DNA of 46,599 nt, taken from NCBI GenBank assembly GCA_934446135.1, contig CAKSDT010000002.1:1-46599 (forward strand). Reading direction: 5' to 3'. Source of the DNA: an uncultured Clostridia bacterium (GTDB lineage: Bacteria > Bacillota > Clostridia > RGIG6154). This document shows, piece after piece, positions 6,496 to 40,545 of this stretch (position 1 is its first letter; the number at the start of each line of letters is the position of its first letter). Both the position numbers and the translations under genes were made by a program. The notes under the pieces were generated by a model that worked only from the letters and a program-made list of their open reading frames with translations, was not told where the DNA came from and made no database searches.

Positions 6496-7782
6496 ATGGA
6501 TATAGAAAATAAAACTCTTGCACAGTTGCAGGAAATAGCAAAATCACTCGGAATTAAATCGTATTCAAAGTATAAAAAAGCGGATCTTGCCGTGTTAATA
6601 CTTGAAATGGCTGCAGAAACCGAGGTGAAGGACGAACCTGAGCATGATGAAACTGAAAAAACCCCCGATAGTGAAAAGCAAGAAGTTTCGGGCGTGTTGG
6701 AGGTGCTTCAGGACGGATACGGATTTTTGAGAGGTCCTAATTATCTTTCAACCAATATGGATGTTTATGTTTCCATAAACCAGATAAAAAGGTTCAGGCT
6801 TAAAACAGGCGATAAAATCGCAGGTATCGCAAGAAATCCTAAAGGTGCCGGCGAAAAATCAAGACAATTGATATATGTTTCAAGTGTGAACGGAGATGAG
6901 CCGTATAAAGCGGCAAGAAGATGTCCGTTTGAGTATCTTGTTCCTGTTTATCCGGACAAGAGGATAAAACTTGAAACTTCGACAACAGATTATGCAATGC
7001 GTCTTATAGATTTAATTGCACCGTTGGGAAGAGGACAGAGAGGGCTGATTGTCGCACCGCCAAAAGCGGGCAAAACAACACTTCTTAAAAATATAGCACA
7101 CTCTGTTTCGGAAAATGCCCCGGACGCTGAACTTATAGTCTTGCTTATAGATGAAAGACCTGAGGAAGTTACCGATATGCAAAAATGTATAAAAGGCGAT
7201 GTTATTTATTCAACATTTGACGAACAGCCCGAGCATCACATTAAAGTTGCTGAAATGGTGCTTGAAAGGGCACAGAGAATTGCAGAACAGAAGAAGGATG
7301 TTGTAATACTTTTGGATTCGCTCACAAGACTTGCAAGGTCATACAACATTGTAAACCCGTCATCAGGAAAGACTTTATCCGGAGGACTTGATCCTAATTC
7401 GCTTTACAAACCCAAAAAGTTTTTCGGTGCTGCAAGAAATATTGAAAACGGCGGAAGTATTACAATTCTTGCAACTGCACTTGTTGAAACGGGAAGCAGA
7501 ATGGATGATGTCATTTTTGAAGAATTCAAGGGAACGGGCAATATGGAAGTTCATCTTGACCGAAAACTTCAGGAAAGAAGAATATTCCCGGCAATAGATG
7601 TAACAAAGTCGGGAACGAGGAAAGAAGAATTATTGGTTGACAAGGACCAATTAGACGCAATGTATATTTTAAGAAGAAAATTCAGCGGTTCAAATTCTCA
7701 GGATTTTACAGAGAGGCTTATTTCTCTTGTTGTTTCAACCAAATCCAATAAGGAACTTATTGAAAAGTTGAAAAAGTTGTAA
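6496..7782 (+). CDS. rho: transcription termination factor Rho
   Basis: N-terminal Rho_N ([13 protein letters not shown]), CSD-like RNA-binding domain ([14 protein letters not shown]), Walker [11 protein letters not shown]. Confidence 0.95.
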
Positions 7783-15859: not shown

Positions 15860-15922
15860 AACAAAATTCCTCCGTACAAATCGATTTTCAAACATATATT
15901 ATACAGAATTTTTCTTGTTTTG

Positions 15923-16699
15923 TCAATCTTGCATTGCCTCCGTGCGTTTTTGAGAATATTCCTTGGGCGAAATTCCAAAATGCTTTTTAAAACTTTTGGA
16001 AAAGTGAAATGTGTCGGAATATCCGGAAAGCGTTGCGGAGTCTGCCACACTTTTGCCTTGCTTTAAATATTTTTTGGCTTTTTCAAGCCTTACATTAATA
16101 AGGTAGTCCTGAATTGTAAATCCGGTTTTTTCTTTAAACAAACGGGTCATATATCTTCTGTCAAGCCCTATCATTGACGCGATTTCAGAAATCTTTACAT
16201 TTGTCATATAGTTTGAACGGATAAAGTTTTTAATCTGTTGCTCATAACCGGACGGTTTCTCGCTTTTGTCTATTATATGTGAAATTACTACATACAAAAG
16301 TCCCACAAGATATTCTTCACGGGATGAAGTAAATTCATCGGCATCCTGCATCTTAAGAAAAGTATCGTCTGAATAATCAATCACAGGTTTTTCAAGGCTT
16401 TTAAGTTTTTCTGCAATATTTCCGGTAAATCCAATCCAGATGTAATACCACGGGTCTTTTAAATCTGCGGTATATGTAGTTGTTTCGTCAGGATATATAA
16501 TAAATATCTGCCCTTCGTTTACAGGGTGTCTGCCGTCTTTGTTTATAAGAACGCCTTTTCCCTTTACTACATAGTGAATAAGATACTGGTCTCTTATTGA
16601 AGGACCGTAACTGTACTTTGGAGTGCAGACTTCATAACCGCATTGACGAACATTAAGTTCAGAATACTTTCTGTCTGTAAGTGCAATATCTTTTCGCAT
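15923..16699 (-). CDS. AraC-family transcriptional regulator (N-terminal cupin sensor, C-terminal double HTH)
   Basis: A cupin-like N-domain is followed by ISEIASMIGLDRRYMTRLFKEKTG and SGYSDTFHFSKSFKKHFGISPKEY. Start taken at the ATG 7 nt after AAGGTGAG. Confidence 0.85.
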   Translation of the reverse strand: MRKDIALTDRKYSELNVRQCGYEVCTPKYSYGPSIRDQYLIHYVVKGKGVLINKDGRHPVNEGQIFIIYPDETTTYTADLKDPWYYIWIGFTGNIAEKLKSLEKPVIDYSDDTFLKMQDADEFTSSREEYLVGLLYVVISHIIDKSEKPSGYEQQIKNFIRSNYMTNVKISEIASMIGLDRRYMTRLFKEKTGFTIQDYLINVRLEKAKKYLKQGKSVADSATLSGYSDTFHFSKSFKKHFGISPKEYSQKRTEAMQD

Positions 16700-19926: not shown

Positions 19927-19993
19927 AATATCACCTTGATTTCAGTATACCAAACTTTTTCTTTTTTGTCTATTATAAAGTTTGATTTTTCTA

Positions 19994-20022
19994 TTGACAA
20001 TGGGTATTTCGTGGGATATAAT
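19994..20022 (+). promoter_or_regulatory. perfect consensus sigma-A promoter (TTGACA, 17 nt spacer, TATAAT)
   Basis: TTGACA at 19994-19999 and TATAAT at 20017-20022, 62 nt upstream of the GH36 ATG. Confidence 0.6.
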
Positions 20023-20083: not shown

Positions 20084-22219
20084 ATGGGTATTAAAATTAA
20101 TGGAGAAAAGAAACTCTTCAGACTGGAAACCAAAAACTCTTCGTACGCATTTACATTAAATGCAGACAAAAGAGTTGTAAACCTTTACTGGGGTCCGAAA
20201 ATTGAAGACGAACTTACATATGATATGTATCTTCCGGGACTTTCACAAAAGTCAAGCGGTGACAATGCAACATACCATGCCATAGTAAACAATGCTTATG
20301 AATATGCTGCAAACGAACCTTTCACATATGATGAGCAATCTTTGGATGTTGACTTTAAAAACGGCATTAAAGGTGCATGGCTTATATTTGACAGTTATAA
20401 AATTTCAGAAACCGGAAACGAACTTGTAGTTACTTTAAAAGATGAAATGAAGGATTTTTATGTTGACCTTCATTATTATGTATATGAAGAGTTGGATCTT
20501 ATAACAAGACACTCTGTTATAAGAAATGAAACAGACGGGGAAGTTGTTCTTAACAAGTTTCAGTCTGCAACGCTTCATTTTCCCGACGGTAATGAATACC
20601 GTCTTACGCATTTCAGAGGCAACTGGGGAAGTGAATATCAGAGAGAGGAAAGAATGGTTGATTACGGAAGATTTGCAATTCAGAACAACCACGGAAACAC
20701 CTCGGGACCTCACGCTTATCCTGCGTTTTTTATTGACCGTGACGGTCTTTCAACCGAAACAGACGGGGAAACATATTTCGGTACACTTCATTGGAGCGGA
20801 AACTTTAAAATAACTGTTGAAAAAACATCACTTAAGAGAATAAATGTTTCAGCCGGTATAAATGATGAACATACTGCAATTCATCTTAAAAAAGGTGAGA
20901 AATTCGAAACACCCGAATTTACAATCGGTTTTTCAAAAGACGGATTTGCGGGTATATCTAAAAATCTTTATGATTTGCAGTTGGATTACCTTATGCCGCA
21001 GAATAAAGCACACGAAATAAGACCGATTTTGTATAACGCTTATTTAACATATTACAATGATATTGATGAGAAAAAAATTATGGATCTTATCCCGGCTGCT
21101 GCGGATTTAGGCGTTGAACTCTTTATGATTGACGACGGTTGGATGCCCGGAAGAACGGGTGAAGATGTCGGACTCGGCGACTGGGTTCCGGATAAAGAAA
21201 GATTTCCGAGAGGGCTTAAGGTTATTGCCGATGAAACGCACAAACACGGGATGCTCTTTGGTCTTTGGGTAGAACCCGAGATGGCAGACCCCGACAGTGA
21301 TTTGTTCAGAGAACACGAAGACTGGATGCTTAAAACACCCGGAAGAGATTATACACTTTCAAGAAACCAAGTTGTTTTGAATATAGCAAGAGATGATATC
21401 TGCGATTGGGCAATGAAAATGGTTGACGGACTCATTACAGATTATGACCTTGACTATGTTAAATGGGATATGAACAGATATATTTCAGATTTTGGTTTTG
21501 AGGGAGCAACTGACGAAGAGCAGGATGAAATCAGAGTCAAATATATAAGAAATATATACAAAATATGGGATTATATAACCTCAAGGCATCCTGATGTTCT
21601 TTTTGAAAACTGTGCACACGGCGGGGCAAGAGCCGATTACGGTATGATAAAATATACAGACAGAATTAACAGAAGTGATGACGGTGTTGCAACAGATGTA
21701 ATTTTAATTCACGAAGGATTTTCAAGATTTTTCGTTCCTAAAATTGCCGGCGGTGCGGGTAACTTTAACCATGGTCCTAAAGAAACATTTGAATTCAGAA
21801 GAAATATGGCGTTTACAGGTTCATGCAGTCTGGGATTTAATCTTAATACTCTTACAGATGAGGAATTTAAGCAATATAAGGAAGCTGTTGTTGAATTTAA
21901 AAAGGAAAGGGCAGATATCCAGGATTCTTATGTGTACAGATTAAAATCCGCGATTACATCACCGTATGCAATTTGGGAATATGTTAAGAGAGACGGAAGC
22001 GTTATAACACTTTTCGGTTTTGTATTCGGCAGACATTTTATGGATAATAAAATTGAAAGAATCAAACTTACCGGACTTGTTAAAGGTGCTAAGTACAGAT
22101 GTGTAAATGATGGAAAAATTTATACTCAGGAGGGACTTGAAAATGTCGGCATTGATTTGTCTGACTTGCTTCCGAGACATCTTGCATCAACAAGACTCAG
22201 ATTTGAAATAGTTAAATAA
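20084..22219 (+). CDS. GH36 family alpha-galactosidase
   Basis: About 711 aa. Motifs FMIDDGW, DYVKWDMNR and ENCAHGGAR are typical of the GH36 catalytic barrel. Start taken at the ATG after AAAGGGG, because the track's extension would cover the promoter. Confidence 0.85.
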   Translation: MGIKINGEKKLFRLETKNSSYAFTLNADKRVVNLYWGPKIEDELTYDMYLPGLSQKSSGDNATYHAIVNNAYEYAANEPFTYDEQSLDVDFKNGIKGAWLIFDSYKISETGNELVVTLKDEMKDFYVDLHYYVYEELDLITRHSVIRNETDGEVVLNKFQSATLHFPDGNEYRLTHFRGNWGSEYQREERMVDYGRFAIQNNHGNTSGPHAYPAFFIDRDGLSTETDGETYFGTLHWSGNFKITVEKTSLKRINVSAGINDEHTAIHLKKGEKFETPEFTIGFSKDGFAGISKNLYDLQLDYLMPQNKAHEIRPILYNAYLTYYNDIDEKKIMDLIPAAADLGVELFMIDDGWMPGRTGEDVGLGDWVPDKERFPRGLKVIADETHKHGMLFGLWVEPEMADPDSDLFREHEDWMLKTPGRDYTLSRNQVVLNIARDDICDWAMKMVDGLITDYDLDYVKWDMNRYISDFGFEGATDEEQDEIRVKYIRNIYKIWDYITSRHPDVLFENCAHGGARADYGMIKYTDRINRSDDGVATDVILIHEGFSRFFVPKIAGGAGNFNHGPKETFEFRRNMAFTGSCSLGFNLNTLTDEEFKQYKEAVVEFKKERADIQDSYVYRLKSAITSPYAIWEYVKRDGSVITLFGFVFGRHFMDNKIERIKLTGLVKGAKYRCVNDGKIYTQEGLENVGIDLSDLLPRHLASTRLRFEIVK

Positions 22220-22223
22220 ACTA

Positions 22224-22252
22224 TTGACAAATCATAAAATTAGATGTATAAT
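22224..22252 (+). promoter_or_regulatory. perfect consensus sigma-A promoter (TTGACA, 17 nt spacer, TATAAT) of the aromatic operon leader
   Basis: TTGACA at 22224-22229 and TATAAT at 22247-22252. Confidence 0.6.
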
Positions 22253-22283
22253 TTTAAAAAACTTACAGAGAGGAAATCAGTTT

Positions 22284-22385
22284 ATGATATCGAGTTTACA
22301 TACTTTTTCATATTACTTTAGTGTAGCCTTTTATTTTGGTTATGCTTTATTTGGTGTGAAAAAATTACTTGTAAGCCGTTATTAA
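22284..22385 (+). CDS. candidate leader peptide, 33 aa, Phe/Tyr-rich (MISSLHTFSYYFSVAFYFGYALFGVKKLLVSRY)
   Basis: My own translation. GAGAGGA RBS 9 nt upstream of the ATG. It has 5 Phe and 5 Tyr codons and no Trp, with nine of them clustered in codons 8-23. It lies between the promoter and the terminator hairpin upstream of pheA. Confidence 0.55.
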   Translation: MISSLHTFSYYFSVAFYFGYALFGVKKLLVSRY

Positions 22386-22432
22386 ACCGATTTTTAATAT
22401 GCGTATATTATTAAAGTCTTACTTGTAATTTT
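22361..22432 (+). promoter_or_regulatory. candidate antiterminator pairing (22361-22375 with 22418-22432)
   Basis: AAAATTACTTGTAAG can pair with CTTACTTGTAATTTT, giving 8 + 5 bp around a 2x2 mismatch. The second segment is the 5' arm of the terminator. The first lies in the last codons of the leader ORF. Confidence 0.45.
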
Positions 22433-22450
22433 ACAGGTAAGGCTTTTTTA
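22416..22450 (+). terminator. rho-independent terminator (attenuator) upstream of pheA
   Basis: GTCTTACTTGT (22416-22426) pairs with ACAGGTAAGGC (22433-22443) in an 11-bp stem that includes 2 G-U pairs. It is followed by TTTTTT at 22444-22449 and sits 27 nt before the pheA ATG. Confidence 0.65.
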
Positions 22451-22476
22451 TTTAAAAAGCAGAAGGGGCGTTTTAA

Positions 22477-23559
22477 ATGGCAGATATACAAAAGGCACGG
22501 AAAGAAATTAATGAAATAGACAAAAAAATGGCGGAACTTTTTGTGAAAAGAATGGATGCTGCAAATGAGGTCTTTCTTTATAAAAAGGAAAACGGACTTC
22601 CTGTTTTGGATGTTGCCCGTGAACAGGAACTTGTTGCAAAAAACTCCGAATTGGTTGAGAATGAAGTATATAAAGCATATTACATAGATTTCCTTAAGAG
22701 TGTGATGGATATATCAAAAAAATATCAGTACAGGCTTCAAAACGGAATTAAAATTGCATATTCAGGAGTTGAGGGTGCCTTTGCCCATATTGCATCAAAT
22801 AAAATATTTCCGGAAGCAGAGTTCGTTCCTTATCCTGATTTTAAATCTGCTTATGACGCTGTAGCAGAAGGCGAATGTGACTCAGTCGTACTTCCTATGG
22901 AAAACAGTTTTGCAGGCGAAGTCGGAAATGTTATGGATATAGTTTTTAAAGGCAGTTTATATATAAACGGAATATATAATCTCGCAGTATCACAGAATCT
23001 GCTTGGCGTAAAGGGAGCGGACAAGAAGAATATAAAAACCGTTGTGAGTCATATTCAGGCACTTAACCAGTGTATGGGGTATATAAAAGAAAACGGATTT
23101 GAAACGGTTGAAGCCGGAAACACCGCTTATGCGGCAAAATTGATTTCAGAAGAAAATGACAAGACTAAGGCTGCTATTGCAAGTGCTGAAACCGCTGATA
23201 TTTACGGGCTTGAAATTCTTGAAAGAAATATAAATAAAAGCAATGTAAATACAACAAAATTTGCTGTCCTTTCAAAGGTAAAACTTAAAAGCGGAAACCA
23301 AAACTCGGTTCTTATGTTTACAGTTTCAAACAATGCCGGTTCTTTGGCAAAGGCAATAAATGTTATAGGTAAATACGGTTATAATATGACAACATTAAGA
23401 AGCAGACCGCTAAAAGAACACTCCTGGAAATATTATTTTTATGTAGAAATAGACGGAAATACCGAAACAGAACTTGGAAAAGTTATGATTAACGAACTTA
23501 AAGAATGCTGCGACCTTTTAAAAGTTGCAGGTACATTTTCAGAAAATATTAAACTTTAG
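22477..23559 (+). CDS. pheA: bifunctional chorismate mutase / prephenate dehydratase (P-protein)
   Basis: N-terminal AroQ-type CM helix (IQKARKEINEIDKKMAELFVKRMD), a PDT domain (ENSFAGEV, TKFAVL) and a C-terminal ACT domain. Confidence 0.9.
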   Translation: MADIQKARKEINEIDKKMAELFVKRMDAANEVFLYKKENGLPVLDVAREQELVAKNSELVENEVYKAYYIDFLKSVMDISKKYQYRLQNGIKIAYSGVEGAFAHIASNKIFPEAEFVPYPDFKSAYDAVAEGECDSVVLPMENSFAGEVGNVMDIVFKGSLYINGIYNLAVSQNLLGVKGADKKNIKTVVSHIQALNQCMGYIKENGFETVEAGNTAYAAKLISEENDKTKAAIASAETADIYGLEILERNINKSNVNTTKFAVLSKVKLKSGNQNSVLMFTVSNNAGSLAKAINVIGKYGYNMTTLRSRPLKEHSWKYYFYVEIDGNTETELGKVMINELKECCDLLKVAGTFSENIKL

Positions 23560-23570
23560 GAGGTGCTTTG

Positions 23571-24560
23571 ATGACTGAAATATATGTAGAACTTGAAAAT
23601 AATCCATATCATGTTGTGATTGAAAAAGGAATTTTGGACAGCATTGAAGACCATATCAATCTTAACAGAAAAGTGCTCGTTGTGACAGATAAACTTGTTC
23701 CCGCAATTTACTCCGACAAGGTTGCAAAAAAGTGCCTTACCCCGGTAAAAGAGGTAATAGACGGCGGAGAAGAATGTAAAAACCTTAAAACTTTTGAAAA
23801 ACTTTTAAAAACTATGCTTGAAAATAATTTTTCAAGGAAAGATGCAGTTGTTGCGGTCGGCGGCGGTGTTGTAGGGGATATTTCGGGTTTTGCGGCATCT
23901 TGCTATATGAGGGGAATTGATTTTTACAATGTTCCGACAACAGTTTTGTCTGAGGTTGACTCTTCAGTCGGCGGTAAAACTGCAGTAAACTTAAATAATG
24001 TAAAAAATATTGTGGGAACATTTTACCAGCCGAAAAAAGTTGTAATTGATCCGTTGACATTAAACACTCTTTCAAAAAGGCAGTTTTCAAACGGAATGGC
24101 AGAGGTTATAAAAATAGCCGCAGTTTTAGATAAAGACTTCTTTGAATATCTTGAAAATACTGATTGCATCGATATTGAATATATAATATCAAAAGCAATT
24201 ACATTAAAGAAAAATGTTGTTGTGGAGGATGAAAAAGAGGCAGGACTCAGAAAAGTTTTGAATTTCGGTCATACCATAGGACACGGAATCGAACTTTCCA
24301 CAGACCTTTATCACGGTGAAAGTATTGCACTTGGTATGCTTTATATGTCATCAGACCGGGCAAAGAAACGAATTTTAAATGTTATGGAAAAATTTAATCT
24401 TCCCACAAGCCATAATTTTGATAAAGAAAAGGCTGTTTCAAGCATCAGAAATGATAAAAAGGGCAACAACGGAAAAGTGACGGCGGTTATATGTCCCGAA
24501 ATAGGGAAATTTGAGTTTAAAGAAGTATCATTTGACCGACTTGCAAAGGAGGTTATGTAA
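23571..24560 (+). CDS. aroB: 3-dehydroquinate synthase
   Basis: GGGVVGDISGFAA nucleotide loop and metal-binding motifs (NFGHTIGHGIE). ATG 23571 follows GGAGGTG. Confidence 0.9.
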   Translation: MTEIYVELENNPYHVVIEKGILDSIEDHINLNRKVLVVTDKLVPAIYSDKVAKKCLTPVKEVIDGGEECKNLKTFEKLLKTMLENNFSRKDAVVAVGGGVVGDISGFAASCYMRGIDFYNVPTTVLSEVDSSVGGKTAVNLNNVKNIVGTFYQPKKVVIDPLTLNTLSKRQFSNGMAEVIKIAAVLDKDFFEYLENTDCIDIEYIISKAITLKKNVVVEDEKEAGLRKVLNFGHTIGHGIELSTDLYHGESIALGMLYMSSDRAKKRILNVMEKFNLPTSHNFDKEKAVSSIRNDKKGNNGKVTAVICPEIGKFEFKEVSFDRLAKEVM

Positions 24561-25658
24561 TTGAAGAACACTTTTGGCAGCAGTATTACGGTTACATTGT
24601 TCGGAGAAAGCCACGGAAAAGCGATAGGTGTGGTTTTGGACGGACTTGCTCCGGGAATGAAAATCGACACTGAAATAATTAACGGTATGCTTTCAAAAAG
24701 AAGACCCGACGGAAAACTTTCAACTTCAAGAATTGAAGAAGATTGTTATGAATTTTTAAGCGGCGTAAAAGACGGGTTTACTACAGGTACACCCCTTACT
24801 GCGATTATAGAAAATAAAAATATCAGAAGTGGAGATTACAGTTCTTTTTCAAATCTCGCAAGACCGTCGCACGCAGATTTTGCGGCAAACGAAAAATATC
24901 ACGGATTTCAGGATAAATCGGGGGGCGGTCATTTCAGCGGAAGAATAACGGCACCGCTGGTTTTGGCGGGCGGTGTGCTTATGCCTGCACTTAATATGAA
25001 AGGCATCTATATCGGAACGCACATAAAGAAAATAAAAGATGTGTCAGACCGCGGATTTAATAATCTTCCGGAAGACATAAAACTCTTAAATGAGAAAAAG
25101 TTTGCAGTTTTAGATTCCGAAAAAGAAAGTCTTATGAAAAAAGTGATAGAAAGTGCCAAACTAAACGGAGACAGCGTAGGCGGAATTCTTGAAACAGTAA
25201 TAACAGGACTTCCGACAGGACTTGGCGAACCGTGGTTTGACAGTATGGAAAGTCTTCTTTCGCATGCAATGTTTTCAATTCCGGGGGTAAAAGGCGTTGA
25301 GTTTGGACTTGGTTTTGAAATATCGGAAAAATTCGGTTCCGAGGCAAATGATTCCTTTTATTCGGAGAACGGAAAAATTTACACAAAAACAAATACTTCG
25401 GGAGGAATAAACGGCGGTATAACAAACGGAATGCCGATTATTTTAAGGTGTGCCGTTAAACCTACTCCGACTATTTTTAAAGAGCAGGAAACAATTGATA
25501 TTAATTCTCTTGAAAACACTGTTATAATACCAAAAGGAAGGCACGATCCGGCAATAATTCAAAGAGCAAGGATTGTTGCGGACAGTATGGCGGCGATAGT
25601 AATTGCGGATGTTTTGACGCAAAGGTTCGGAACTGACTTTTTGGGGGGAGAAAAATGA
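24561..25658 (+). CDS. aroC: chorismate synthase
   Basis: FGESHG N-terminal signature and the GRHDP and SGGINGG motifs. TTG start immediately after the aroB stop, with AAGGAGG 8 nt upstream. Confidence 0.9.
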   Translation: MKNTFGSSITVTLFGESHGKAIGVVLDGLAPGMKIDTEIINGMLSKRRPDGKLSTSRIEEDCYEFLSGVKDGFTTGTPLTAIIENKNIRSGDYSSFSNLARPSHADFAANEKYHGFQDKSGGGHFSGRITAPLVLAGGVLMPALNMKGIYIGTHIKKIKDVSDRGFNNLPEDIKLLNEKKFAVLDSEKESLMKKVIESAKLNGDSVGGILETVITGLPTGLGEPWFDSMESLLSHAMFSIPGVKGVEFGLGFEISEKFGSEANDSFYSENGKIYTKTNTSGGINGGITNGMPIILRCAVKPTPTIFKEQETIDINSLENTVIIPKGRHDPAIIQRARIVADSMAAIVIADVLTQRFGTDFLGGEK

Positions 25659-26896
25659 ATTACGGACTTATAGGAAAGACCTTAAAGCACAGTTTTTCAA
25701 GGGAAATACATCAAAAACTCGGTTATGACTATCTCCTTAAGGAACTTGAACCGGACGAGCTCGAATCATTTTTTAGGGAGAAAAATTTCAAAGCAATCAA
25801 TGTAACGGTTCCTTATAAGGTTGATGTTATGAAGTATTTGGATACTATTGATGAAAATGCACTTTCAATAGGTGCGGTCAACACCGTTTTAAACAGCAAT
25901 GGAAAACTTATAGGTTATAACACGGATTTTTTCGGAATGAAAGACCTTATTGAAAGAACAGGTGTTTCGCTCAAAAATAAAAAAGTTCTGATTTTGGGAA
26001 CCGGCGGTACAAGCAACACGGCAGAATATACTGCAAAGTATTTGGGAGCGTCAGAAGTTTTAAAAGTGAGCAGAACAAAAAAAGACGGTGTTATAACTTA
26101 TGATGAAATAGAAACTGCCGGGGCAAATGTCATTATCAATACAACTCCTGCAGGAATGTTTCCGAATAACGGTAATTGCCCTATAAAAGGCGAATTGCCG
26201 GAAGAAACCGAACTGGTTGTTGATGTTATTTATAATCCGCTGAGGACAAGACTTCTTCAAAAAGCCGAGGAAAAAGGAATTTTTTATGCCGGCGGGCTTT
26301 ATATGCTTGTTTCACAAGGCACATACGCTTCCTGTCTTTTTACAGGAAATAAAGAAGTTCTAAACAAAACCGAAGAAATATATAAATCGGTTTTGGGTGA
26401 AAAGCAAAATATTGTGCTTATAGGTATGCCGGGCTCGGGCAAAAGCACTGCTGCAAAACATCTCGGCAATTTTGTTGATACAGATACTGAAATCAAAAAA
26501 GAATACGGACTCTCGCCAAAGGATATAATCCTCGGCAGGGGAGAAAAGGCCTTTCGTGAAATAGAGTCCGAAACAGTCTTAAAACTTTCACGAAAAAACG
26601 GAATTGTTATATCAACGGGCGGAGGAGTTGTGCTGAACCCCGAAAATATAAGAACGCTTAAGGAAAACGGAATAGTTATATTTCTTGACCCTCCGTTTGA
26701 AAGACTTACGGCAACTAAGTCAAGACCTCTTTCCGATACAAAAGAAAAACTTCTTGAAGTTTATAAGGAAAGATATGAAATTTATAACAGAAACTGCGAT
26801 ATAAAAATAAGCGGAGATTATTCACCGGAGGAGATTGCAGATATAATTAAAAAGGAGGTTTCAAAATATGAAGATTCTTGTAATAAACGGACCTAA
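25655..26896 (+). CDS. aroE/aroK: fused shikimate dehydrogenase (N-terminal) / shikimate kinase (C-terminal)
   Basis: The N-terminal half has NVTVPYK, GAVNT, NTD and GTGGTS motifs. The C-terminal half has Walker A GMPGSGKST plus DTD and STGGG motifs. ATGA overlap with aroC. Confidence 0.85.
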   Translation: MNYGLIGKTLKHSFSREIHQKLGYDYLLKELEPDELESFFREKNFKAINVTVPYKVDVMKYLDTIDENALSIGAVNTVLNSNGKLIGYNTDFFGMKDLIERTGVSLKNKKVLILGTGGTSNTAEYTAKYLGASEVLKVSRTKKDGVITYDEIETAGANVIINTTPAGMFPNNGNCPIKGELPEETELVVDVIYNPLRTRLLQKAEEKGIFYAGGLYMLVSQGTYASCLFTGNKEVLNKTEEIYKSVLGEKQNIVLIGMPGSGKSTAAKHLGNFVDTDTEIKKEYGLSPKDIILGRGEKAFREIESETVLKLSRKNGIVISTGGGVVLNPENIRTLKENGIVIFLDPPFERLTATKSRPLSDTKEKLLEVYKERYEIYNRNCDIKISGDYSPEEIADIIKKEVSKYEDSCNKRT

Positions 26897-27299
26897 CCTC
26901 AATATGCTTGGAATAAGACAGCCTGAGATATACGGGAAAAATACTTATGAGGATTTGGTTAATCTTATAAAAAATCACAGAAGCGAAATTGAGTATGAAT
27001 TTTATCAGTCAAATCACGAAGGTGCAATAGTTGATAAAATTCAGGAAGCCTACCGAAAAAAAGATGCAATTGTGATAAACCCCGGTGCATACACCCATAC
27101 CAGTATTGCAATAAAAGACGCACTAAGCACTGTTTCAATTCCTTATGCTGAGGTACATATATCTGATGTTGATAAAAGGGAAGACTACAGAAAAATAAGT
27201 TACATAAGAGACGGTGCCGATATAACTGTAAAGGGTTTGGGATTCGATGGGTATTTGAAAGCGGTCGATTTCCTTTATGAAAGGTATGGTGCAAAATGA
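26868..27299 (+). CDS. aroQ: type II 3-dehydroquinate dehydratase
   Basis: [22 protein letters not shown] and [10 protein letters not shown] motifs. AGGAGG 9 nt upstream. 29-nt overlap with the aroE/K 3' end. Confidence 0.9.
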   Translation: [143 protein letters not shown]

Positions 27300-28504
27300 G
27301 GGCTTGTTTTAAAAAATGCAGCCTCAAAGGAAAAGTTCAGGCACCGCCCTCCAAAAGTATGGCACACAGATATCTTATTTTAAGTTATTTGTCGGGTGAA
27401 AAGTGCAAAGTTTCAAATATTGCTTTCTCAGAAGATATAAAAGCAACCCTAAACTGTCTTAAGAGGCTGGGTGCAAGTTTAGAGATGTCTGAAAATGAGG
27501 TTTTAATAAAAAAAACAGACTCCGATAAAATTCCGTTTCTGAATTGCAATGAAAGCGGAAGCACATTGAGATTTTTAATTCCCATAGCACTTACTTTGGA
27601 TAAAGAGGTGACATTTACGGGAACCGAAAAACTTTTTTCTAGGCCGCTTGATATATATGAAAAACTTTGCAGTGAAAAAGGTTTTTTGTTTAGAAAAGAA
27701 AATGACAAACTTACAGTCAAAGGAAAACTTTCGGGCGGGTCTTACACTGTAAGAGGCGATATAAGCAGTCAGTTTATATCAGGACTATTATTTGCACTAT
27801 CTTTAATTCCTGAAGAAAGTGTAATAAATGTTCTTCCGCCGTTTGAAAGTAAATCATATGTTTTGATGACTGCACAGAGCCTTAATGAGTTTGGGATAAA
27901 AGTTGATGTGACAGACAGGAACATCAGAATCAAAGGCGGAAAATATGTAAAAAGGGATAGTTTAATTGAGGGTGACTATTCAAATGCGGCATATATTGAA
28001 GGATTTAATCTTGCCGACGGAAACTGTGTTGAGATTTCGGGTCTTTCAAAATCAATACAGGGTGACAGAGTTTATAAGAAACTTTTTGAGCAACTTGAAA
28101 ATTTTTCAGAGATTGATATTTCGGACTGCCCTGATTTAGGACCTGTTCTTTTTGTAGGTGCAGCACTAAAATGCGGTGCGACTTTTAATGGGACAAAAAG
28201 ACTTGCGGCAAAAGAAAGCGACAGGGTTTCGGAAATGGCTGAAGAACTTAAAAAGTTCGGAATCAAAGTAGAGTGGACGGAAAACTCCGCGACGGTTGGG
28301 AAAGGAAATATTAAACCGCCTGACTGTGATTTGAGTTCTCATAACGACCACAGGGTTTTAATGGCTCTTTCGATACTTTTAAGCGTAACGGGAGGAACGA
28401 TTACCGGGGCAGAAGCCGTAAAAAAAAGTTTTCCCGATTATTTTGAAAAAATCAAACAACTTGGAGCAGAGGTGAAACTTACAGATGATAGTAGATGTGA
28501 CTAA
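27296..28504 (+). CDS. aroA: 3-phosphoshikimate 1-carboxyvinyltransferase (EPSP synthase)
   Basis: KSMAHR, NESGSTLRFL, DHRVLMA motifs. 402 aa. ATGA overlap with aroQ. Confidence 0.85.
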   Translation: MRACFKKCSLKGKVQAPPSKSMAHRYLILSYLSGEKCKVSNIAFSEDIKATLNCLKRLGASLEMSENEVLIKKTDSDKIPFLNCNESGSTLRFLIPIALTLDKEVTFTGTEKLFSRPLDIYEKLCSEKGFLFRKENDKLTVKGKLSGGSYTVRGDISSQFISGLLFALSLIPEESVINVLPPFESKSYVLMTAQSLNEFGIKVDVTDRNIRIKGGKYVKRDSLIEGDYSNAAYIEGFNLADGNCVEISGLSKSIQGDRVYKKLFEQLENFSEIDISDCPDLGPVLFVGAALKCGATFNGTKRLAAKESDRVSEMAEELKKFGIKVEWTENSATVGKGNIKPPDCDLSSHNDHRVLMALSILLSVTGGTITGAEAVKKSFPDYFEKIKQLGAEVKLTDDSRCD

Positions 28505-29339
28505 AAATATACTTATAGTAGGACTGGGACTTTTGGGCGGAAGTTATGCAAAAGGACTTAAAAAATACGGTTTTAAAATAAGTGCAATTTCAAAAAAGGA
28601 AAGTGAAATTGAATACGGTATAAAAAATGGCATAATAGATGACGGTGCCGCTTTTGCAGATGAAAACTTAATAAAGAAAGCGGATATAATAATATTTGCG
28701 GTTTATCCGCACACTATTCCGGAATGGATAAAATCTTATCAGCACCTTTTTAAAAAAAATGTTTTAATAACTGATGTAACCGGTGTTAAGGGCTGCATAG
28801 TTTATAAAATTCAGGATTTACTCAGAGAAGACGCTGAATTTATAGGTGCTCATCCTATGGCGGGCCGCGAAGTATCCGGTGTGGAAAACAGTACTGATGA
28901 GATGTTTAAAGGTGCAAATTATATTATTACACCGACTGACAAAAATACCGACGCTGCAATAGAAACATGCAGAGAAATAGGGCATCTTCTTGGATTTTCT
29001 TCGGTTTCGGTGCTTTCGCCCGAAGAGCATGACGAAATGATAGGTTTTCTTTCACAACTTACTCACTGCATCGCAGTATCGCTTATGACTTGCAATGACT
29101 GCGAGCATCTTGAAAAGTTTACGGGAGATTCTTTCCGTGACCTTACAAGAATAGCAAAAATCAATGACGAAATGTGGAGCGAACTTTTCATAGATAACAA
29201 AAAATCTTTACTTACCCAAATGGAAATGTTTGAAAATCAGTTTAACAAACTTAAAGAGACACTTCAGAATGAGGACAGAGAAGGAATGCGTAAAATAATG
29301 CGTGCATCAACAGTAAGAAGAAAAAAATTTGACAAATAA
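28485..29339 (+). CDS. tyrA: prephenate dehydrogenase
   Basis: IVGLGLLGGS Rossmann loop and the GAHPMAG motif. 20-nt overlap with aroA. Confidence 0.85.
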   Translation: MIVDVTKNILIVGLGLLGGSYAKGLKKYGFKISAISKKESEIEYGIKNGIIDDGAAFADENLIKKADIIIFAVYPHTIPEWIKSYQHLFKKNVLITDVTGVKGCIVYKIQDLLREDAEFIGAHPMAGREVSGVENSTDEMFKGANYIITPTDKNTDAAIETCREIGHLLGFSSVSVLSPEEHDEMIGFLSQLTHCIAVSLMTCNDCEHLEKFTGDSFRDLTRIAKINDEMWSELFIDNKKSLLTQMEMFENQFNKLKETLQNEDREGMRKIMRASTVRRKKFDK

Positions 29340-29353
29340 GGAGGAAAGATACA

Positions 29354-30382
29354 ATGAATATGGAATTTATCAGAAAATTGCCTATACCTATGGAGATTAA
29401 GAAGCAGTATCCGATGACGGAAGAAATGGTTAAATTAAAAGAGGACAGGGACGAACAAATTAAAAAAATCTTAGACGGCAGAGATGACAGACTTCTTGTT
29501 ATAATAGGCCCGTGTTCGGCGGATAACGAGGATAGCGTTTTGGATTATCTCGGCAGGCTCAAAAAACTTGATGAACAAGTAAATGAAAAACTTATGATTG
29601 TTCCTAGAATTTATACCAATAAGCCAAGAACTACCGGAGACGGCTATAAAGGTATGCTTCATCAGCCTGACCCTAACAGCGAATCCGATATGCTTAAAGG
29701 TCTTATATCTATAAGGAATCTTCATATAAGAGCAATAAAAGAGATAGGTTTTACCTGTGCAGATGAAATGCTTTATACTGAAAATCACCGTTATCTTTCA
29801 GACCTTTTGTCTTATGTTGCGGTAGGTGCAAGGTCTGTTGAAAATCAACAGCACAGACTCACATCAAGCGGACTTGCAATTCCCGTAGGTCTTAAAAATC
29901 CTACCGGCGGAGATATTTCGGTTCTTATGAATTCAATTACTGCGGCTCAGCATCCCCATACATTTGTATACAGAGGTTGGGAAGTTAAAAGCAAAGGCAA
30001 TCCCTATGCACATGCAATACTCAGGGGATATGTCGATAAAAGAGGTCAGTCGATACCGAATTATCATTATGAAGATTTGGTTCACCTTTGCGAAAACTAT
30101 GAAAAACACGATCTTGCAAACCCCGGCGTTATTATTGACACAAATCATGCAAATTCAGGAAAGCAGTATGACCAGCAGCCGAGAATTGCAAAAGAGGTTC
30201 TTCACAGTTGCCGTCATAATAACGATGTCAAGAAACTTGTCAAAGGACTTATGATTGAAAGTTATATTGAAGACGGAAGTTGTAAGGCGAGCGAGAGAAT
30301 ATACGGTAAATCAATAACCGATCCGTGCCTCGGTTGGGAAAAAACTGAAAGGCTTGTGTTGGATCTTGCAGAATTATTATAG
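29354..30382 (+). CDS. aroF: 3-deoxy-7-phosphoheptulonate (DAHP) synthase, class I alpha-like
   Basis: LLVIIGPCS, YTNKPRTT and GYKGMLHQPDP are motifs of AroF/G/H-type enzymes. TAG stop at 30380-30382. Confidence 0.85.
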   Translation: MNMEFIRKLPIPMEIKKQYPMTEEMVKLKEDRDEQIKKILDGRDDRLLVIIGPCSADNEDSVLDYLGRLKKLDEQVNEKLMIVPRIYTNKPRTTGDGYKGMLHQPDPNSESDMLKGLISIRNLHIRAIKEIGFTCADEMLYTENHRYLSDLLSYVAVGARSVENQQHRLTSSGLAIPVGLKNPTGGDISVLMNSITAAQHPHTFVYRGWEVKSKGNPYAHAILRGYVDKRGQSIPNYHYEDLVHLCENYEKHDLANPGVIIDTNHANSGKQYDQQPRIAKEVLHSCRHNNDVKKLVKGLMIESYIEDGSCKASERIYGKSITDPCLGWEKTERLVLDLAELL

Positions 30383-39183: not shown

Positions 39184-40545
39184 ATGAAAAAATCGTATTC
39201 GGAAATTACACCGTATGTTAAAAAACTTGCTTTGGTTTCTGATGAAAGAAATGGCATTACACCTGAAATGTACCCCGTTCACAATGTAAAAAGGGGACTT
39301 CGCGATGTAGACGGAAACGGAGTTGTGACAGGTCTTACTGAGATTTCGGAAATTAAGGCAAAAGAAAAACTGCCAAACGGCGAAACAGTACCTTGCAGAG
39401 GAGAACTGTATTTCAGAGGAGTGAATGTCAGACAACTTGTAGACGGTTTCAGAAATGATGACAGATTTGGCTTTGAAGAAACTGTTTACCTGCTGTTATT
39501 TTCAAAACTGCCCGATAAAAATGAGTTAAAAGAATTCACTCAGTATCTTTCTGAAGTTCGGACTCTTCCTACATCATTTGTGAGAGATATGATATTTAAA
39601 GCCCCCGGAAGCAATATTATGAATATTCTTGCAAGATGTGTTCTTGTTTTGTATGCTTATGATGATAATCCCGACGATATAAGCATTGAAAATGTTCTAA
39701 GGCAGTGTCTATTTTTAATATCGGTTTTTCCGCTGCTTTCTGTTTATGCTTATAAATCTTATGAGCATTATTATCACGGAAACGATCTTAATATATATAT
39801 GCCGAAGGCTGATCTTTCAACCGCTGAGAACATACTGCTTTTGTTAAGAGGAGAGGGCAACTATTCACATATAGAGGCAAAAATTCTTGATCTTGCTCTT
39901 GCTTTGCATGCAGAACACGGAGGAGGCAACAATTCAACTTTTACAACTCATGTCGTTACATCTTCGGGTACAGATACATATTCTGCGATTGCGGCGGCTT
40001 TGGGTTCATTAAAAGGTCCCCGTCACGGCGGTGCAAATTTAAAAGTGGTTGAAATGTTTGATGATATGAAAAAAAGCATAGATACCGATAATGAAGATGA
40101 GATAAAGGACTATCTTGAAAGACTTCTTGATAAAAAAGCGTTTGACAATGCAGGTCTTATTTACGGTATGGGTCACGCAGTGTATTCAAAATCAGACCCA
40201 AGAGCCGACATTTTAAAAGAATGTGCAAGAGAACTTTCTGTTGAAGAACATTGCGAAAAGGAATTCAAACTTTATGAAACGGTTTCACGCCTTGCTCCTG
40301 AAATAATTTCCGAAAAAAGGAAAATGTATAAAGGCGTAAGTGCAAATGTAGACTTTTATTCCGGACTTATTTATAAAATGCTGGACCTTCCGCATGAACT
40401 TTATACCGCTATTTTTGCTATGGCAAGAATTTCGGGATGGTGTGCCCACAGAATAGAAGAAATTCAGAATAAGGGGAAAATTATAAGACCGTCATACATA
40501 AATGTCAAGGAAAGACAAGAATATAAAAATTTGAATGAGAGATAA
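39184..40545 (+). CDS. citrate synthase (Si-type citrate/2-methylcitrate synthase family)
   Basis: 453 aa with HAEHGGGNNSTF, GPRHGGAN, GMGHAVY and VDFYSG motifs. Confidence 0.85.
   Translation: MKKSYSEITPYVKKLALVSDERNGITPEMYPVHNVKRGLRDVDGNGVVTGLTEISEIKAKEKLPNGETVPCRGELYFRGVNVRQLVDGFRNDDRFGFEETVYLLLFSKLPDKNELKEFTQYLSEVRTLPTSFVRDMIFKAPGSNIMNILARCVLVLYAYDDNPDDISIENVLRQCLFLISVFPLLSVYAYKSYEHYYHGNDLNIYMPKADLSTAENILLLLRGEGNYSHIEAKILDLALALHAEHGGGNNSTFTTHVVTSSGTDTYSAIAAALGSLKGPRHGGANLKVVEMFDDMKKSIDTDNEDEIKDYLERLLDKKAFDNAGLIYGMGHAVYSKSDPRADILKECARELSVEEHCEKEFKLYETVSRLAPEIISEKRKMYKGVSANVDFYSGLIYKMLDLPHELYTAIFAMARISGWCAHRIEEIQNKGKIIRPSYINVKERQEYKNLNER

What the first reader, a model, noticed from the sequence alone, without database searches (positions are those of the whole stretch)
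22224..22476. Phe/Tyr-rich leader peptide with competing antiterminator and terminator hairpins in front of the aromatic amino-acid operon
A perfect TTGACA-17-TATAAT promoter is followed by a 33-codon ORF (22284-22385) with a good RBS. The ORF has 5 Phe and 5 Tyr codons, nine of them within codons 8-23, and no Trp. That composition matches the operon it precedes, which makes Phe (pheA) and Tyr (tyrA) but has no trp genes. The last codons of the ORF (22361-22375) can pair with 22418-22432. That second segment is the 5' arm of an 11-bp terminator stem (22416-22443) followed by a U6 run, which sits just before pheA. A ribosome at the stop codon would mask the first segment and let the terminator form. 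A ribosome stalled at Phe or Tyr codons would leave it free and favour the antiterminator. This is the classic logic of ribosome-mediated attenuation in Proteobacteria. Firmicutes normally control such operons with T-box leaders or RNA-binding proteins, so an aromatic leader-peptide attenuator here would be unusual and possibly undescribed.
Basis: partly seen in the sequence, partly recalled or inferred. Interest (0 to 1): 0.8.

Follow-up and report, generated by a model that had tools for sequence, protein, structure and literature searches.

The report
Phe/Tyr leader-peptide attenuator of pheA operon
A 33-codon mini-gene packed with phenylalanine and tyrosine codons, followed by a switchable transcription stop signal, sits in front of the operon that makes these two amino acids. 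The same design recurs in many uncultured gut Clostridia and Treponema, so it is very probably a classic ribosome-sensing attenuator from sequence families that no database searched here lists.

Summary
A 12/12 consensus promoter (22224-22252) precedes an SD-led 33-codon ORF (22284-22385; 5 Phe, 5 Tyr, 0 Trp). A strong intrinsic terminator follows (22413-22446 plus T6), then pheA-aroB-aroC-aroE/K-aroQ-aroA-tyrA-DAHP synthase. The ORF's 3' part (22361-22375) pairs with the terminator's 5' arm and loop (22418-22432). It also pairs with the Phe/Tyr-codon region upstream. Together these give the classic 1:2, 2:3 and 3:4 helices.

The comparative evidence is decisive. Short Phe/Tyr-rich ORFs plus a terminator lie just upstream of pheA in relatives belonging to at least six unrelated-looking sequence families (Oscillospirales-like Clostridia and gut Treponema). 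In 750 kb of related loci, all 15 ORFs meeting a strict Phe/Tyr criterion lie within 350 nt upstream of pheA. Only the Phe/Tyr richness and the architecture are conserved.

Rfam 15 finds nothing here: no T-box, Phe_leader or other family. The peptides are essentially absent from protein databases.

The mechanism is textbook ribosome-mediated attenuation. Leader-peptide attenuators are already known in Firmicutes for His and Leu, and a Phe uORF is predicted before Acholeplasma aroF. This is therefore a new member of a known kind. Function is inferred, not shown. Confidence 0.8, interest about 0.5.

The parts
22224..22252 (+). Sigma-A/sigma-70 type promoter: TTGACA (22224-22229), 17-nt spacer, TATAAT (22247-22252). 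The inferred transcription start is near 22259-22260.
   Evidence: 12/12 consensus match. Four perfect matches in the window against 0.09 expected. Consensus-like promoters sit at the same relative position in relatives L001-L009 and L165-L168.
22267..22274 (+). Shine-Dalgarno region AGAGAGGA of the leader ORF. The GAGG core is at 22270-22273, with 10 nt between it and the ATG.
   Evidence: Read from the sequence. An SD precedes the equivalent ORF in the Clostridial families.
22284..22385 (+). Leader-peptide ORF: 33 codons plus UAA, MISSLHTFSYYFSVAFYFGYALFGVKKLLVSRY. The regulatory Phe/Tyr codons are codons 8-23 (22305-22352).
   Evidence: It is the only ORF of this kind in the window. Its orthologue in L004/L167 keeps the Phe/Tyr richness, with one Tyr lost and one gained.
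22294..22315 (+). Region 1: the 5' strand of the 1:2 (anti-antiterminator/pause) hairpin. It covers codons 4-11, including Phe8, Tyr10 and Tyr11.
   Evidence: MFE of 22290-22380 is -25.9 kcal/mol, z = -5.5, 0/200 shuffles as good. Most of its pairs are kept in L004.
22320..22346 (+). Small inner hairpin within the 1:2 structure (22320-22328 pairs with 22338-22346). It carries codons 13-21.
   Evidence: Pairs are kept in L004 with C-G/U-G and U-G/C-G changes.
22352..22376 (+). Region 2, the switch segment (codons 23-31). It pairs with region 1 (22352-22363 and 22370-22376). Alternatively, as 22361-22375, it pairs with region 3.
22418..22432 (+). Region 3: the upper 5' arm and loop of the terminator, and the partner of region 2 in the antiterminator (13 of 15 positions paired).
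   Evidence: R2:R3 duplex is -10.8 against -5.2 +/- 1.6 kcal/mol for shuffles. It is the MFE pairing in partial transcripts when a ribosome is placed on Phe/Tyr codons. Region 3 is unpaired when the ribosome is at the stop codon.
22413..22449 (+). Intrinsic terminator (3:4): stem 22413-22427 with 22432-22446, loop 22428-22431, T6 tract 22444-22449.
   Evidence: -17.2 kcal/mol, z = -8.8. A22421-U22438 is replaced by G-C in L004. Equivalent terminators in family B show 4 of 10 pairs with compensatory changes.
22477..30382 (+). Regulated operon: pheA (CM-PDT-ACT), aroB, aroC, aroE/aroK fusion, aroQ, aroA, tyrA, DAHP synthase.
   Evidence: Pfam. The pheA-aroB-aroC-aroE/K order is conserved in related loci.

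Best explanation
This is a ribosome-mediated (leader-peptide) transcription attenuator. It senses charged tRNA-Phe and tRNA-Tyr and controls the pheA-aro-tyrA operon.

Transcription starts near 22259, and a ribosome initiates at 22284.

- If Phe-tRNA or Tyr-tRNA is scarce, the ribosome stalls in codons 8-23. It then occupies region 1 and leaves region 2 (22361-22375) free. Region 2 pairs with region 3 (22418-22432) as soon as region 3 emerges, the terminator cannot form, and RNA polymerase reads into pheA.
- If both are plentiful, the ribosome runs to the UAA at 22383 and covers region 2. Region 3 pairs with region 4, and transcription ends at the T tract near 22450. The product would be a leader RNA of about 190 nt.
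- Without translation, the very stable 1:2 hairpin sequesters region 2 and termination also occurs.

Shown here: all sequence elements, their mutual complementarity, and their recurrence in relatives. Inferred: translation of the ORF, stalling, premature termination and the response to Phe/Tyr.
For: 1. All parts are present and non-random.

2. The operon makes exactly Phe and Tyr.

3. Recurrence. Short Phe/Tyr-rich ORFs lie upstream of pheA in many of 140 related loci, in distinct sequence families:
   - A: window, L004, L167.
   - B: '..FAFTYRFYYYFYF..KVRAICDA..', L001-L009, L081-84, L165/166/168.
   - C: L010.
   - D: Treponema, '..FAFFSFEAFSFYY..'.
   - E: '..YFYFYFNNAMEHY..' and 'RFYYY'.
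   - F: human-gut 'MLHFFGFFAFTGK'.
   

4. Specificity. With ATG+SD and at least 7 Phe/Tyr in 12 residues, 15 of 15 hits in 750 kb (six frames) are within 350 nt upstream of pheA. Without the SD requirement and with at least 8 in 12, the count is 23 near against 2 elsewhere.

5. Every leader examined in detail is followed by a strong terminator.

6. In partial transcripts of all 14 family A and B members, a ribosome on Phe/Tyr codons leaves an MFE in which the ORF tail pairs with the terminator's 5' arm. With a ribosome at the stop codon this pairing is largely lost: 0-1 arm nucleotides stay paired upstream in 9 members, and weak residual pairing (about -1 to -5 kcal/mol) remains in 5.

7. R2:R3 complementarity beats dinucleotide shuffles at p <= 0.05 in 12 of 27 leaders against about 1.4 expected. 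These include the window, L004 and most Treponema members, which use a quite different sequence: GAUAAAGCGUAGA across the stop codon pairs with UCUAUUCUUUAUC.

8. Covariation. Family B terminator has 4 of 10 pairs with compensatory changes, and its 1:2 helix has one G-C to A-U exchange. Window against L004: A22421-U22438 becomes G-C in the terminator, and the same A-to-G change is tolerated as U.G in the antiterminator.

9. In family B the terminator loop/apex AUCACAAAUC and the in-ORF GAUUUGUGAU are invariant, including the third codon positions. Meanwhile the lower stem and the flanks vary.

10. The leader travels with the operon, not with the upstream gene, which is GH36, SDR, MscL or other in different loci. 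In L075 and L042 it sits before an aminotransferase gene that precedes pheA.

11. No Rfam family is found in the window or in 20 leader-bearing loci.
Against: - There is no experimental or transcriptomic evidence, and the organism is uncultured.
- The antiterminator is A/U-rich with two U.U mismatches. The partial transcript 22353-22431 folds at -11.4 kcal/mol, which is unexceptional against shuffles (z = -1.1). With the full sequence, the MFE always keeps the terminator, so the switch must be kinetic.
- The window's own family has only two independent lineages. One claimed compensatory pair in the 2:3 helix depends on how a loop indel is aligned.
- In family B the antiterminator is invariant, so covariation neither supports nor contradicts it.
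- Families C, F and G show no significant R2:R3 complementarity with my simple definition of the regions.
- The Phe/Tyr codons in the window are dispersed rather than consecutive.
- The SD-to-ATG spacing is long.
- Uncoupled 'runaway' transcription described for B. subtilis (reviewed in PMC7858274) would blunt such a mechanism if it also applied here.
Confidence: 0.8

Rival explanations
1. The ORF encodes a stable small hydrophobic membrane peptide (or a type I toxin-like product) with its own terminator. Its position before pheA would be incidental.
For: In the window and in L004 the stretch TFSYYFSVAFYFGYALFGV is 19-20 residues long with no charged residue and is followed by KK. That is compatible with a transmembrane helix (read from the translations).
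Against: - The property is not conserved. Family B is interrupted by Arg, and family D by Glu. Families E/E2 (for example MYNNRFYYYQYTDCLCA) have no hydrophobic span.
- Peptide lengths range from 17 to about 40 aa, and only the Phe/Tyr content is shared.
- There is no Pfam match.
- Antisense promoter-like sites are no more frequent than chance.
- The element is tied to the 5' end of the aromatic operon in unrelated genomic neighbourhoods.
Confidence: 0.04
2. The terminator is a conditional attenuator controlled by something other than the ribosome: an RNA-binding protein (TRAP/PyrR-like) that recognises the U-rich UUUUAC-type repeats, an uncharged tRNA (a divergent T-box), or a small-molecule riboswitch. 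The ORF would then be a by-product of U-rich sequence.
For: - In family B the Phe/Tyr tract is a near-perfect UUUUAC hexamer repeat, which could be a protein-binding array.
- AT-rich DNA yields TTT and TAT codons easily. The other two frames of the leaders also hold many such triplets: 111 and 135, against 246 in frame.
- Streptococcal T-boxes have escaped Rfam before (PMC5314783).
Against: - No T-box or riboswitch hit even at E <= 10.
- The window's Phe/Tyr codons are not periodic.
- Families share no nucleotide motif, only an in-frame ATG (usually with an SD), Phe/Tyr codons and a stop codon placed just before or within the segment that pairs with the terminator.
- The enriched amino acids match the products of the operon.
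Confidence: 0.08
3. A nascent-peptide sensor of the TnaC or SecM arrest-peptide type. The Phe/Tyr-rich peptide would stall the ribosome in response to free amino acid, or intrinsically, rather than through tRNA charging.
For: Aromatic-rich nascent chains can interact with the exit tunnel (general knowledge). The ORF tail is conserved in family B (KVRAICDA).
Against: - Arrest peptides need conserved residues at fixed positions. Here only composition is conserved across families.
- The conserved tail of family B is conserved at synonymous sites as well, which points to RNA pairing rather than peptide sequence.
- The polarity would be wrong: stalling when Phe/Tyr are abundant would induce a biosynthetic operon.
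Confidence: 0.03
4. A chance ORF plus an ordinary terminator (for example, that of the upstream GH36 gene) next to a constitutive pheA promoter, with no regulation.
For: The GH36 gene (stop at 22219) has no other terminator before the hairpin.
Against: - The promoter lies upstream of the terminator, so transcripts from it must pass through the hairpin.
- The same ORF-plus-terminator arrangement precedes pheA in loci with different upstream genes.
- The statistics argue against chance.
Confidence: 0.03

Closest known systems
pheL-pheA attenuator of E. coli and other Gammaproteobacteria (Rfam Phe_leader, RF01859)
   Same: A short leader ORF rich in Phe codons, followed by alternative antiterminator and terminator hairpins directly upstream of pheA (chorismate mutase-prephenate dehydratase). 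Translation of the leader controls attenuation (PMC3082878).
   Different: - No sequence or covariance-model similarity (no Rfam hit at E <= 10).
- This leader is 33 codons long with dispersed Phe and Tyr codons, rather than a run of Phe codons.
- It controls the whole common pathway plus tyrA, not pheA alone.
- The host is a Clostridium-like Firmicute.
uORFC-13-1 motif upstream of aroF in Acholeplasma and environmental sequences (Brewer et al. 2021, PMC8632094)
   Same: A predicted uORF with promoter, RBS and Phe codons just upstream of an intrinsic terminator, in front of a shikimate-pathway gene in a Firmicute-related lineage. The authors proposed that it senses the speed of Phe incorporation.
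   Different: - It is described only before aroF, with 'at least one' Phe codon.
- It comes from different taxa.
- Here the first gene is pheA and the leader holds 9-14 Phe/Tyr codons.
- Sequence relatedness could not be tested, because no model or sequences were available to me.
Leader-peptide attenuators already reported in Firmicutes: His (hisS/hisZ of bacilli, B. cereus group, C. difficile and relatives, Erysipelotrichales), Leu (Streptococcus leuA; S. aureus ilv-leu), and the leu/phe leader of Lactococcus (Rfam RF01743, from memory)
   Same: The same mechanism and the same phylum, replacing the more usual T-box (PMC2965389, PMC9413887, PMC5314783, PMC5794164).
   Different: Different amino acids and operons, and unrelated sequences. 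None of the papers read mentions an aromatic pheA-aro operon in Clostridia or Spirochaetes.
Multivalent attenuators of E. coli thr (Thr+Ile) and ilv (Ile/Leu/Val) operons (textbook knowledge)
   Same: The regulatory codons are for more than one amino acid and are interspersed, so that shortage of any one of them relieves termination.
   Different: The amino acid pair here is Phe+Tyr, which to my knowledge has not been described for a leader peptide.
T-box leaders (RF00230), the usual control of amino-acid genes in Firmicutes
   Same: The same position (5' leader), the same output (terminator against antiterminator) and the same ultimate signal (tRNA charging).
   Different: There is no specifier loop or T-box sequence and no Rfam hit. 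Sensing is through a translating ribosome, not direct tRNA binding.

Membership tests
Ribosome-mediated (leader-peptide) transcription attenuator | A short ORF with a start codon and ribosome-binding site inside the 5' leader, downstream of the promoter | tested here: met
   Promoter 22224-22252, SD 22267-22274, ATG 22284, UAA 22383.
Ribosome-mediated (leader-peptide) transcription attenuator | Enrichment of codons for the amino acid(s) made by the regulated operon | tested here: met
   10 of 33 codons are Phe/Tyr (9 of 16 in codons 8-23) against an 8.3% background. The operon encodes pheA and tyrA. It is the only such ORF in the window.
Ribosome-mediated (leader-peptide) transcription attenuator | An intrinsic terminator between the leader ORF and the first structural gene | tested here: met
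   22413-22446 plus T6, -17.2 kcal/mol, z = -8.8.
Ribosome-mediated (leader-peptide) transcription attenuator | An antiterminator pairing that excludes the terminator, masked by a ribosome at the end of the ORF and free when the ribosome stalls on the regulatory codons | tested here: met
   22361-22375 pairs with 22418-22432, 13 of 15 positions, p about 0.007 against shuffles. State-dependent folding is shown. The stability is modest: whole-segment z = -1.1.
Ribosome-mediated (leader-peptide) transcription attenuator | A 1:2 hairpin that overlaps the regulatory codons and sequesters region 2 when there is no stall | tested here: met
   22294-22315 pairs with 22352-22376, -25.9 kcal/mol, z = -5.5.
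Ribosome-mediated (leader-peptide) transcription attenuator | Conservation in relatives of the regulatory codons and the helices while other residues drift | tested here: met
   Families A-F. Covariation in the terminator and the 1:2 helix. Specificity is 15 of 15.
Ribosome-mediated (leader-peptide) transcription attenuator | Premature termination in vivo that responds to Phe/Tyr-tRNA charging and to translation of the leader | not testable with these tools
   Needs Term-seq, northern blots, reporters or in vitro coupled assays.
Rfam Phe_leader (RF01859) and leu/phe leader (RF01743) | A match to the family covariance model | tested here: not met
   No hit at gathering score in the window, at E <= 10 in 22150-22550, or in 20 leader-bearing loci.
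T-box riboswitch (RF00230) | Stem I with specifier loop plus the conserved T-box antiterminator sequence; a match to the covariance model | tested here: not met
   No Rfam hit. A regex for GGGTGGTACCGCG with up to 2 mismatches found nothing upstream of pheA in any locus.
uORFC-13-1 motif (Acholeplasma aroF uORF) | Sequence and structure similarity to the published consensus; location upstream of aroF | not tested
   No model or sequences were available. The location differs: here the element precedes pheA and the DAHP synthase gene is last in the operon.
Type I toxin / small membrane protein | A conserved hydrophobic transmembrane span and an overlapping antisense RNA | tested here: not met
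   A TM-length uncharged span exists only in family A. It is absent in families B, D and E. There is no excess of antisense promoter-like sites.

The most novel reading that the evidence does not exclude
A broad set of leader-peptide attenuators, absent from Rfam 15 and from the papers searched here, reads both Phe and Tyr codons and governs the whole pheA-aro-tyrA supraoperon. It spans uncultured Oscillospirales-like Clostridia and gut or rumen Treponema. The operon and its leader were probably exchanged between the two phyla: their PheA proteins are 50-55% identical, and families B and D share the 'F-A-F' UUUGCAUU segment. If so, ribosomes in these Firmicutes and Spirochaetes follow RNA polymerase closely enough for translation to control termination, unlike the uncoupled 'runaway' transcription of B. 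subtilis.
Probability: 0.55. Interest if true: 0.6.

Novelty: new member of a known kind. Interest (0 to 1): 0.5.

Why it matters
- It gives a mechanism for how an abundant but uncultured group of gut Clostridia, and gut Treponema, control aromatic amino-acid synthesis. No T-box, TRAP or known riboswitch is detectable there.
- It adds aromatic (Phe+Tyr) sensing to the short list of leader-peptide attenuators in Firmicutes, and apparently the first in Spirochaetes.
- Such attenuators work only if a ribosome follows RNA polymerase closely. Their presence is therefore a genomic marker for functional transcription-translation coupling in lineages where this is debated (PMC7858274, PMC8237595).
- The leaders are missed by gene callers and by Rfam. 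A covariance or codon-based model built from the families found here would improve annotation of metagenome-assembled genomes.

Tried and rejected
1. Rfam at gathering and at E <= 10 on the window, on 20 leader-bearing loci and on 20 loci without a leader found nothing except two tRNAs. A T-box consensus regex also found nothing. A T-box or known riboswitch is rejected.

2. Full-length MFE folding with the ribosome footprint constrained always kept the terminator. A thermodynamic comparison therefore says little about a kinetic switch, and I replaced it with folding of partial transcripts.

3. I tried to enlarge the window's own leader family for covariation.
   - The genome and metagenome scans and a 5.8-billion-protein search show a gap from 100% to 71% PheA identity.
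   - Four context look-ups gave three more family B members and one near-copy of L004.
   - Family A therefore remains at two lineages.

4. I wanted to test whether the Tyr-codon content of leaders tracks the presence of tyrA in the operon. Not resolved.

5. Pfam search of the peptide gave no match.

6. Exact look-up of ten leader peptides in the 15-billion-protein collection found only the L004 type, and it is unnamed.

7. Six literature searches found no description of a Phe/Tyr leader before pheA in Clostridia or Treponema. Absence from this library is not proof of absence.
Full report
**1. What is there**

- TTGACA (22224-22229), a 17-nt spacer and TATAAT (22247-22252) form a 12/12 promoter match. 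Perfect matches to TTGACA-N16-18-TATAAT occur four times in the window against 0.09 expected from shuffles, so this organism uses consensus promoters and this is one of them.
- An AGAGAGGA Shine-Dalgarno region (22267-22274) precedes ATG 22284.
- The ORF runs to UAA 22383-22385 and reads MISSLHTFSYYFSVAFYFGYALFGVKKLLVSRY. It has five Phe, five Tyr and no Trp, and nine of the ten lie in codons 8-23.
- Phe+Tyr make up 8.3% of nine neighbouring proteins, so 10 of 33 (or 9 of 16) is far above background (binomial 2.5e-4 and 1.3e-6).
- A six-frame scan of the whole window for SD+ATG ORFs of 12-60 aa with at least 7 Phe/Tyr in 12 residues returns only this ORF.
- The terminator is 22413-22446, with 15 pairs and a 4-nt loop, followed by T6. 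It folds at -17.2 kcal/mol, z = -8.8.
- Downstream lie pheA (chorismate mutase, prephenate dehydratase, ACT), aroB, aroC, an aroE/aroK fusion, aroQ, aroA, tyrA and a DAHP synthase gene. That is the complete route to Phe and Tyr, without trp genes.
- The leader is identical in four independent metagenome assemblies.

**2. The RNA has the full three-helix layout**

It has 13 of 15 positions paired and two central U.U mismatches. The duplex is -10.8 kcal/mol, against -5.2 +/- 1.6 for dinucleotide shuffles of the ORF tail (z = -3.4, p about 0.007).

This forms a long hairpin of -25.9 kcal/mol (z = -5.5, 0 of 200 shuffles as good).

Region 1 therefore carries regulatory codons, region 2 is the switch, region 3 is the terminator's 5' arm and loop, and region 4 is its 3' arm.

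I folded the transcript only up to the terminator loop, to model the moment of decision.
- With a ribosome placed on Phe/Tyr codons, the MFE pairs region 2 with region 3.
- With the ribosome at the stop codon, region 3 is unstructured (-0.2 kcal/mol) and free to form the terminator.

Caveats:
- The antiterminator state as a whole (-11.4 kcal/mol) is not exceptional against shuffles (z = -1.1).
- With the full sequence the terminator always wins thermodynamically. The switch must therefore be kinetic, as in classical attenuators.

**3. Relatives**

Using PheA as a handle I collected 160 loci from genomes and metagenomes, plus eight by exact-protein look-up. The nearest PheA is only 71% identical. 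The organism is an uncultured Clostridia/Oscillospiraceae-like gut bacterium.

Short Phe/Tyr-rich ORFs lie just upstream of pheA in many of these loci, in sequence families that cannot be aligned with one another:
- A: window, L004, L167 (MTQCMRTFSYYFISVVFTFGYAYFGMKKLHVS).
- B: for example MKTYINNFAFTYRFYYYFYFMFSKVRAICDAEKNVYA.
- C: ..FYYFTPACYFAGFYWY..
- D: Treponema MAGs, for example MKSMNTNTFAFFSFEAFSFYYYKNGNAR.
- E: ..NNYFYFYFNNAMEHY.. and MYNNRFYYYQYTDCLCA.
- F: a human-gut group, MLHFFGFFAFTGK..

Specificity is high.
- In 750,609 bases scanned in six frames, 15 ORFs meet the strict criterion, and all 15 are within 350 nt upstream of pheA on its strand.
- Without the SD requirement and with at least 8 Phe/Tyr in 12 residues, the count is 23 near against 2 elsewhere.

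Every leader examined in detail is followed by a strong terminator.

The leader travels with the operon's 5' end. The upstream neighbour differs between loci (GH36, SDR, MscL and others). Where an aminotransferase gene precedes pheA, a 'RFYYY'-type leader sits in front of that gene in L075, and a related 'RFFYF' leader in L042.

**4. Conservation of the switch**

In all 14 members of families A and B, the stalled-ribosome partial transcript pairs the ORF tail with the terminator's 5' arm and loop. With the ribosome at the stop codon this pairing is largely lost: 0-1 arm nucleotides stay paired upstream in 9 members, and weak residual pairing (about -1 to -5 kcal/mol) remains in 5.

Across 27 non-redundant leaders, the region 2:region 3 duplex beats shuffles at p <= 0.05 in 12, against about 1.4 expected by chance. 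The 12 include the window, L004 and most Treponema members. Families C, F and G are not significant with my simple definition of the regions.

The Treponema family reaches the same logic with different sequence. GAUAAAGCGUAGA, which spans the stop codon, pairs with UCUAUUCUUUAUC in the terminator's arm and loop.

In family B (alignment A1):
- The terminator has compensatory changes at 4 of 10 pairs.
- The 1:2 helix has one G-C to A-U exchange.
- The 10-bp antiterminator (GAUUUGUGAU in codons R-A-I-C-D with the terminator apex AUCACAAAUC) is invariant. This says nothing by covariation. It is still notable, because a terminator loop and synonymous codon positions are held fixed while the lower stem and flanks change.

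Between the window and L004 (78% identical leaders):
- A22421-U22438 in the terminator becomes G-C.
- The same A-to-G change gives a tolerated U.G in the antiterminator.
- One U.U mismatch becomes A-U.
- An apparent A-U to G-C exchange in the A-run depends on how a loop indel is placed.
- At the peptide level the six N-terminal residues differ completely, one Tyr is lost and another is gained. The Phe/Tyr load is kept.

**5. Alternatives**

- T-box or known riboswitch: excluded as far as Rfam 15 can see.
- Membrane peptide or type I toxin: only family A has a TM-length uncharged span. The others are interrupted by charged residues or are too short.
- Protein-binding repeat: conceivable for the UUUUAC repeats of family B. 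The window's codons are not periodic, though. What unites the families is an in-frame start, Phe/Tyr codons and a stop codon placed next to the switch segment.
- Ordinary terminator of the upstream gene: does not explain a promoter placed before it, or its constant association with pheA.

**6. Comparison with what is known**

The mechanism is that of E. coli pheL-pheA (PMC3082878) and of multivalent attenuators such as thr and ilv (textbook knowledge).

Leader-peptide attenuators were long thought to be absent from Firmicutes. They have since been reported:
- His in bacilli (PMC2965389).
- His in the B. cereus group, C. difficile relatives and Erysipelotrichales (PMC9413887).
- Leu in Streptococcus (PMC5314783).
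- Leu in S. aureus, studied experimentally according to the abstract (PMC5794164; abstract only).
- A Phe-codon uORF with a terminator predicted before aroF in Acholeplasma (uORFC-13-1; PMC8632094).

None of the six searches returned a Phe/Tyr leader before the pheA-aro operon in Clostridia or Treponema. Rfam has no model that matches. Nine of ten leader peptides tested are absent from a 15-billion-protein collection, and the tenth is unnamed.

I therefore file it as a new member, or really a set of new sequence families, of a known kind. It is not a new mechanism.

**7. Why it matters, and the score**

It explains the control of aromatic amino-acid synthesis in abundant uncultured gut bacteria. 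It extends leader-peptide attenuation to a Phe+Tyr pair and apparently to Spirochaetes. It also bears on whether transcription and translation are coupled outside the Proteobacteria. B. subtilis transcription runs ahead of the ribosome, while C. difficile seems not to behave that way (PMC7858274, PMC8237595).

A specialist would find this neat rather than astonishing. Interest is 0.5. Confidence that it is a functional ribosome-mediated attenuator is 0.8. All functional steps (translation, stalling, premature termination) are inferred.

Noticed in passing
L033, L039, L040, L053, L055, L057, L063, L067, L074, L093 (about 90-300 nt upstream of pheA): Gut and rumen Treponema MAGs carry the same kind of Phe/Tyr leader plus terminator before a pheA-aroB-aroC-aroE/K operon. 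Their PheA is 50-55% identical to the Clostridial one. Families B and D share a UUUGCAUU(U/C) 'F-A-F' segment. This suggests lateral transfer of the operon together with its leader between phyla.
   Followed up: partly
L053, L055, L033, L040 (leader ORF starts): Most Treponema leader ORFs have no Shine-Dalgarno, although pheA in the same loci has one. In L055 a TATAAT box ends 7 nt before the ATG, so these leader mRNAs may be leaderless or nearly so.
   Followed up: no
L075 and L042, about 90-190 nt upstream of an aminotransferase gene that directly precedes pheA: Where a class I/II aminotransferase gene is inserted before pheA, Phe/Tyr-rich leaders (MFDKVFRFYYYICSDC.., ..FVFRFFYFIKADCLY) sit upstream of the aminotransferase. 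Other loci with this arrangement (L014, L024, L036 and others) show no obvious leader and no Rfam hit, so their control is unknown.
   Followed up: partly
window 15898-15926 (-), 19994-20022 (+), 40480-40508 (-): Three further perfect TTGACA-N16-18-TATAAT promoters lie in the window (4 in total against 0.09 expected). The one at 19994 lies just inside the longest ORF call of the GH36 gene (TTG at 19982), so that gene probably starts further downstream.
   Followed up: no
window 25655-26896: A single ORF combines a shikimate dehydrogenase N-terminal domain (residues 5-78) with a shikimate kinase domain (259-400), giving an aroE/aroK fusion. It overlaps the following aroQ gene by 29 nt. The same fused gene follows aroC in most related loci.
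   Followed up: no
window 6496-7782: The organism encodes a Rho termination factor (Rho_N, Rho_RNA_bind and ATPase domains). This is relevant to how untranslated leader RNA might be handled.
   Followed up: no
L167 384-482; L161-L164: A public gene caller annotated the 32-aa L004-type leader ORF as a gene (no Pfam hit, no name). The 33-aa ORF of the window's species was not called in any of four assemblies. Annotation of these leaders is haphazard.
   Followed up: yes
L139 1012-1101: An F-rich ORF (MNFSKLTCVKFINFVFYFFNFFSNMSKCR) ends 100 nt before a prephenate-dehydratase-only match (query residues 87-354). It may be another leader, in front of a pheA that lacks the chorismate mutase domain.
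   Followed up: no
L077, L107-L134, L141 (human gut metagenomes), about 87-153 nt upstream of pheA: A widespread human-gut Oscillospiraceae lineage has a Phe-only candidate leader (MLHFFGFFAFTGKEMPLEVCH) in a GC-richer context. My simple region 2:region 3 test was not significant there, so its antiterminator, if any, lies elsewhere.
   Followed up: partly
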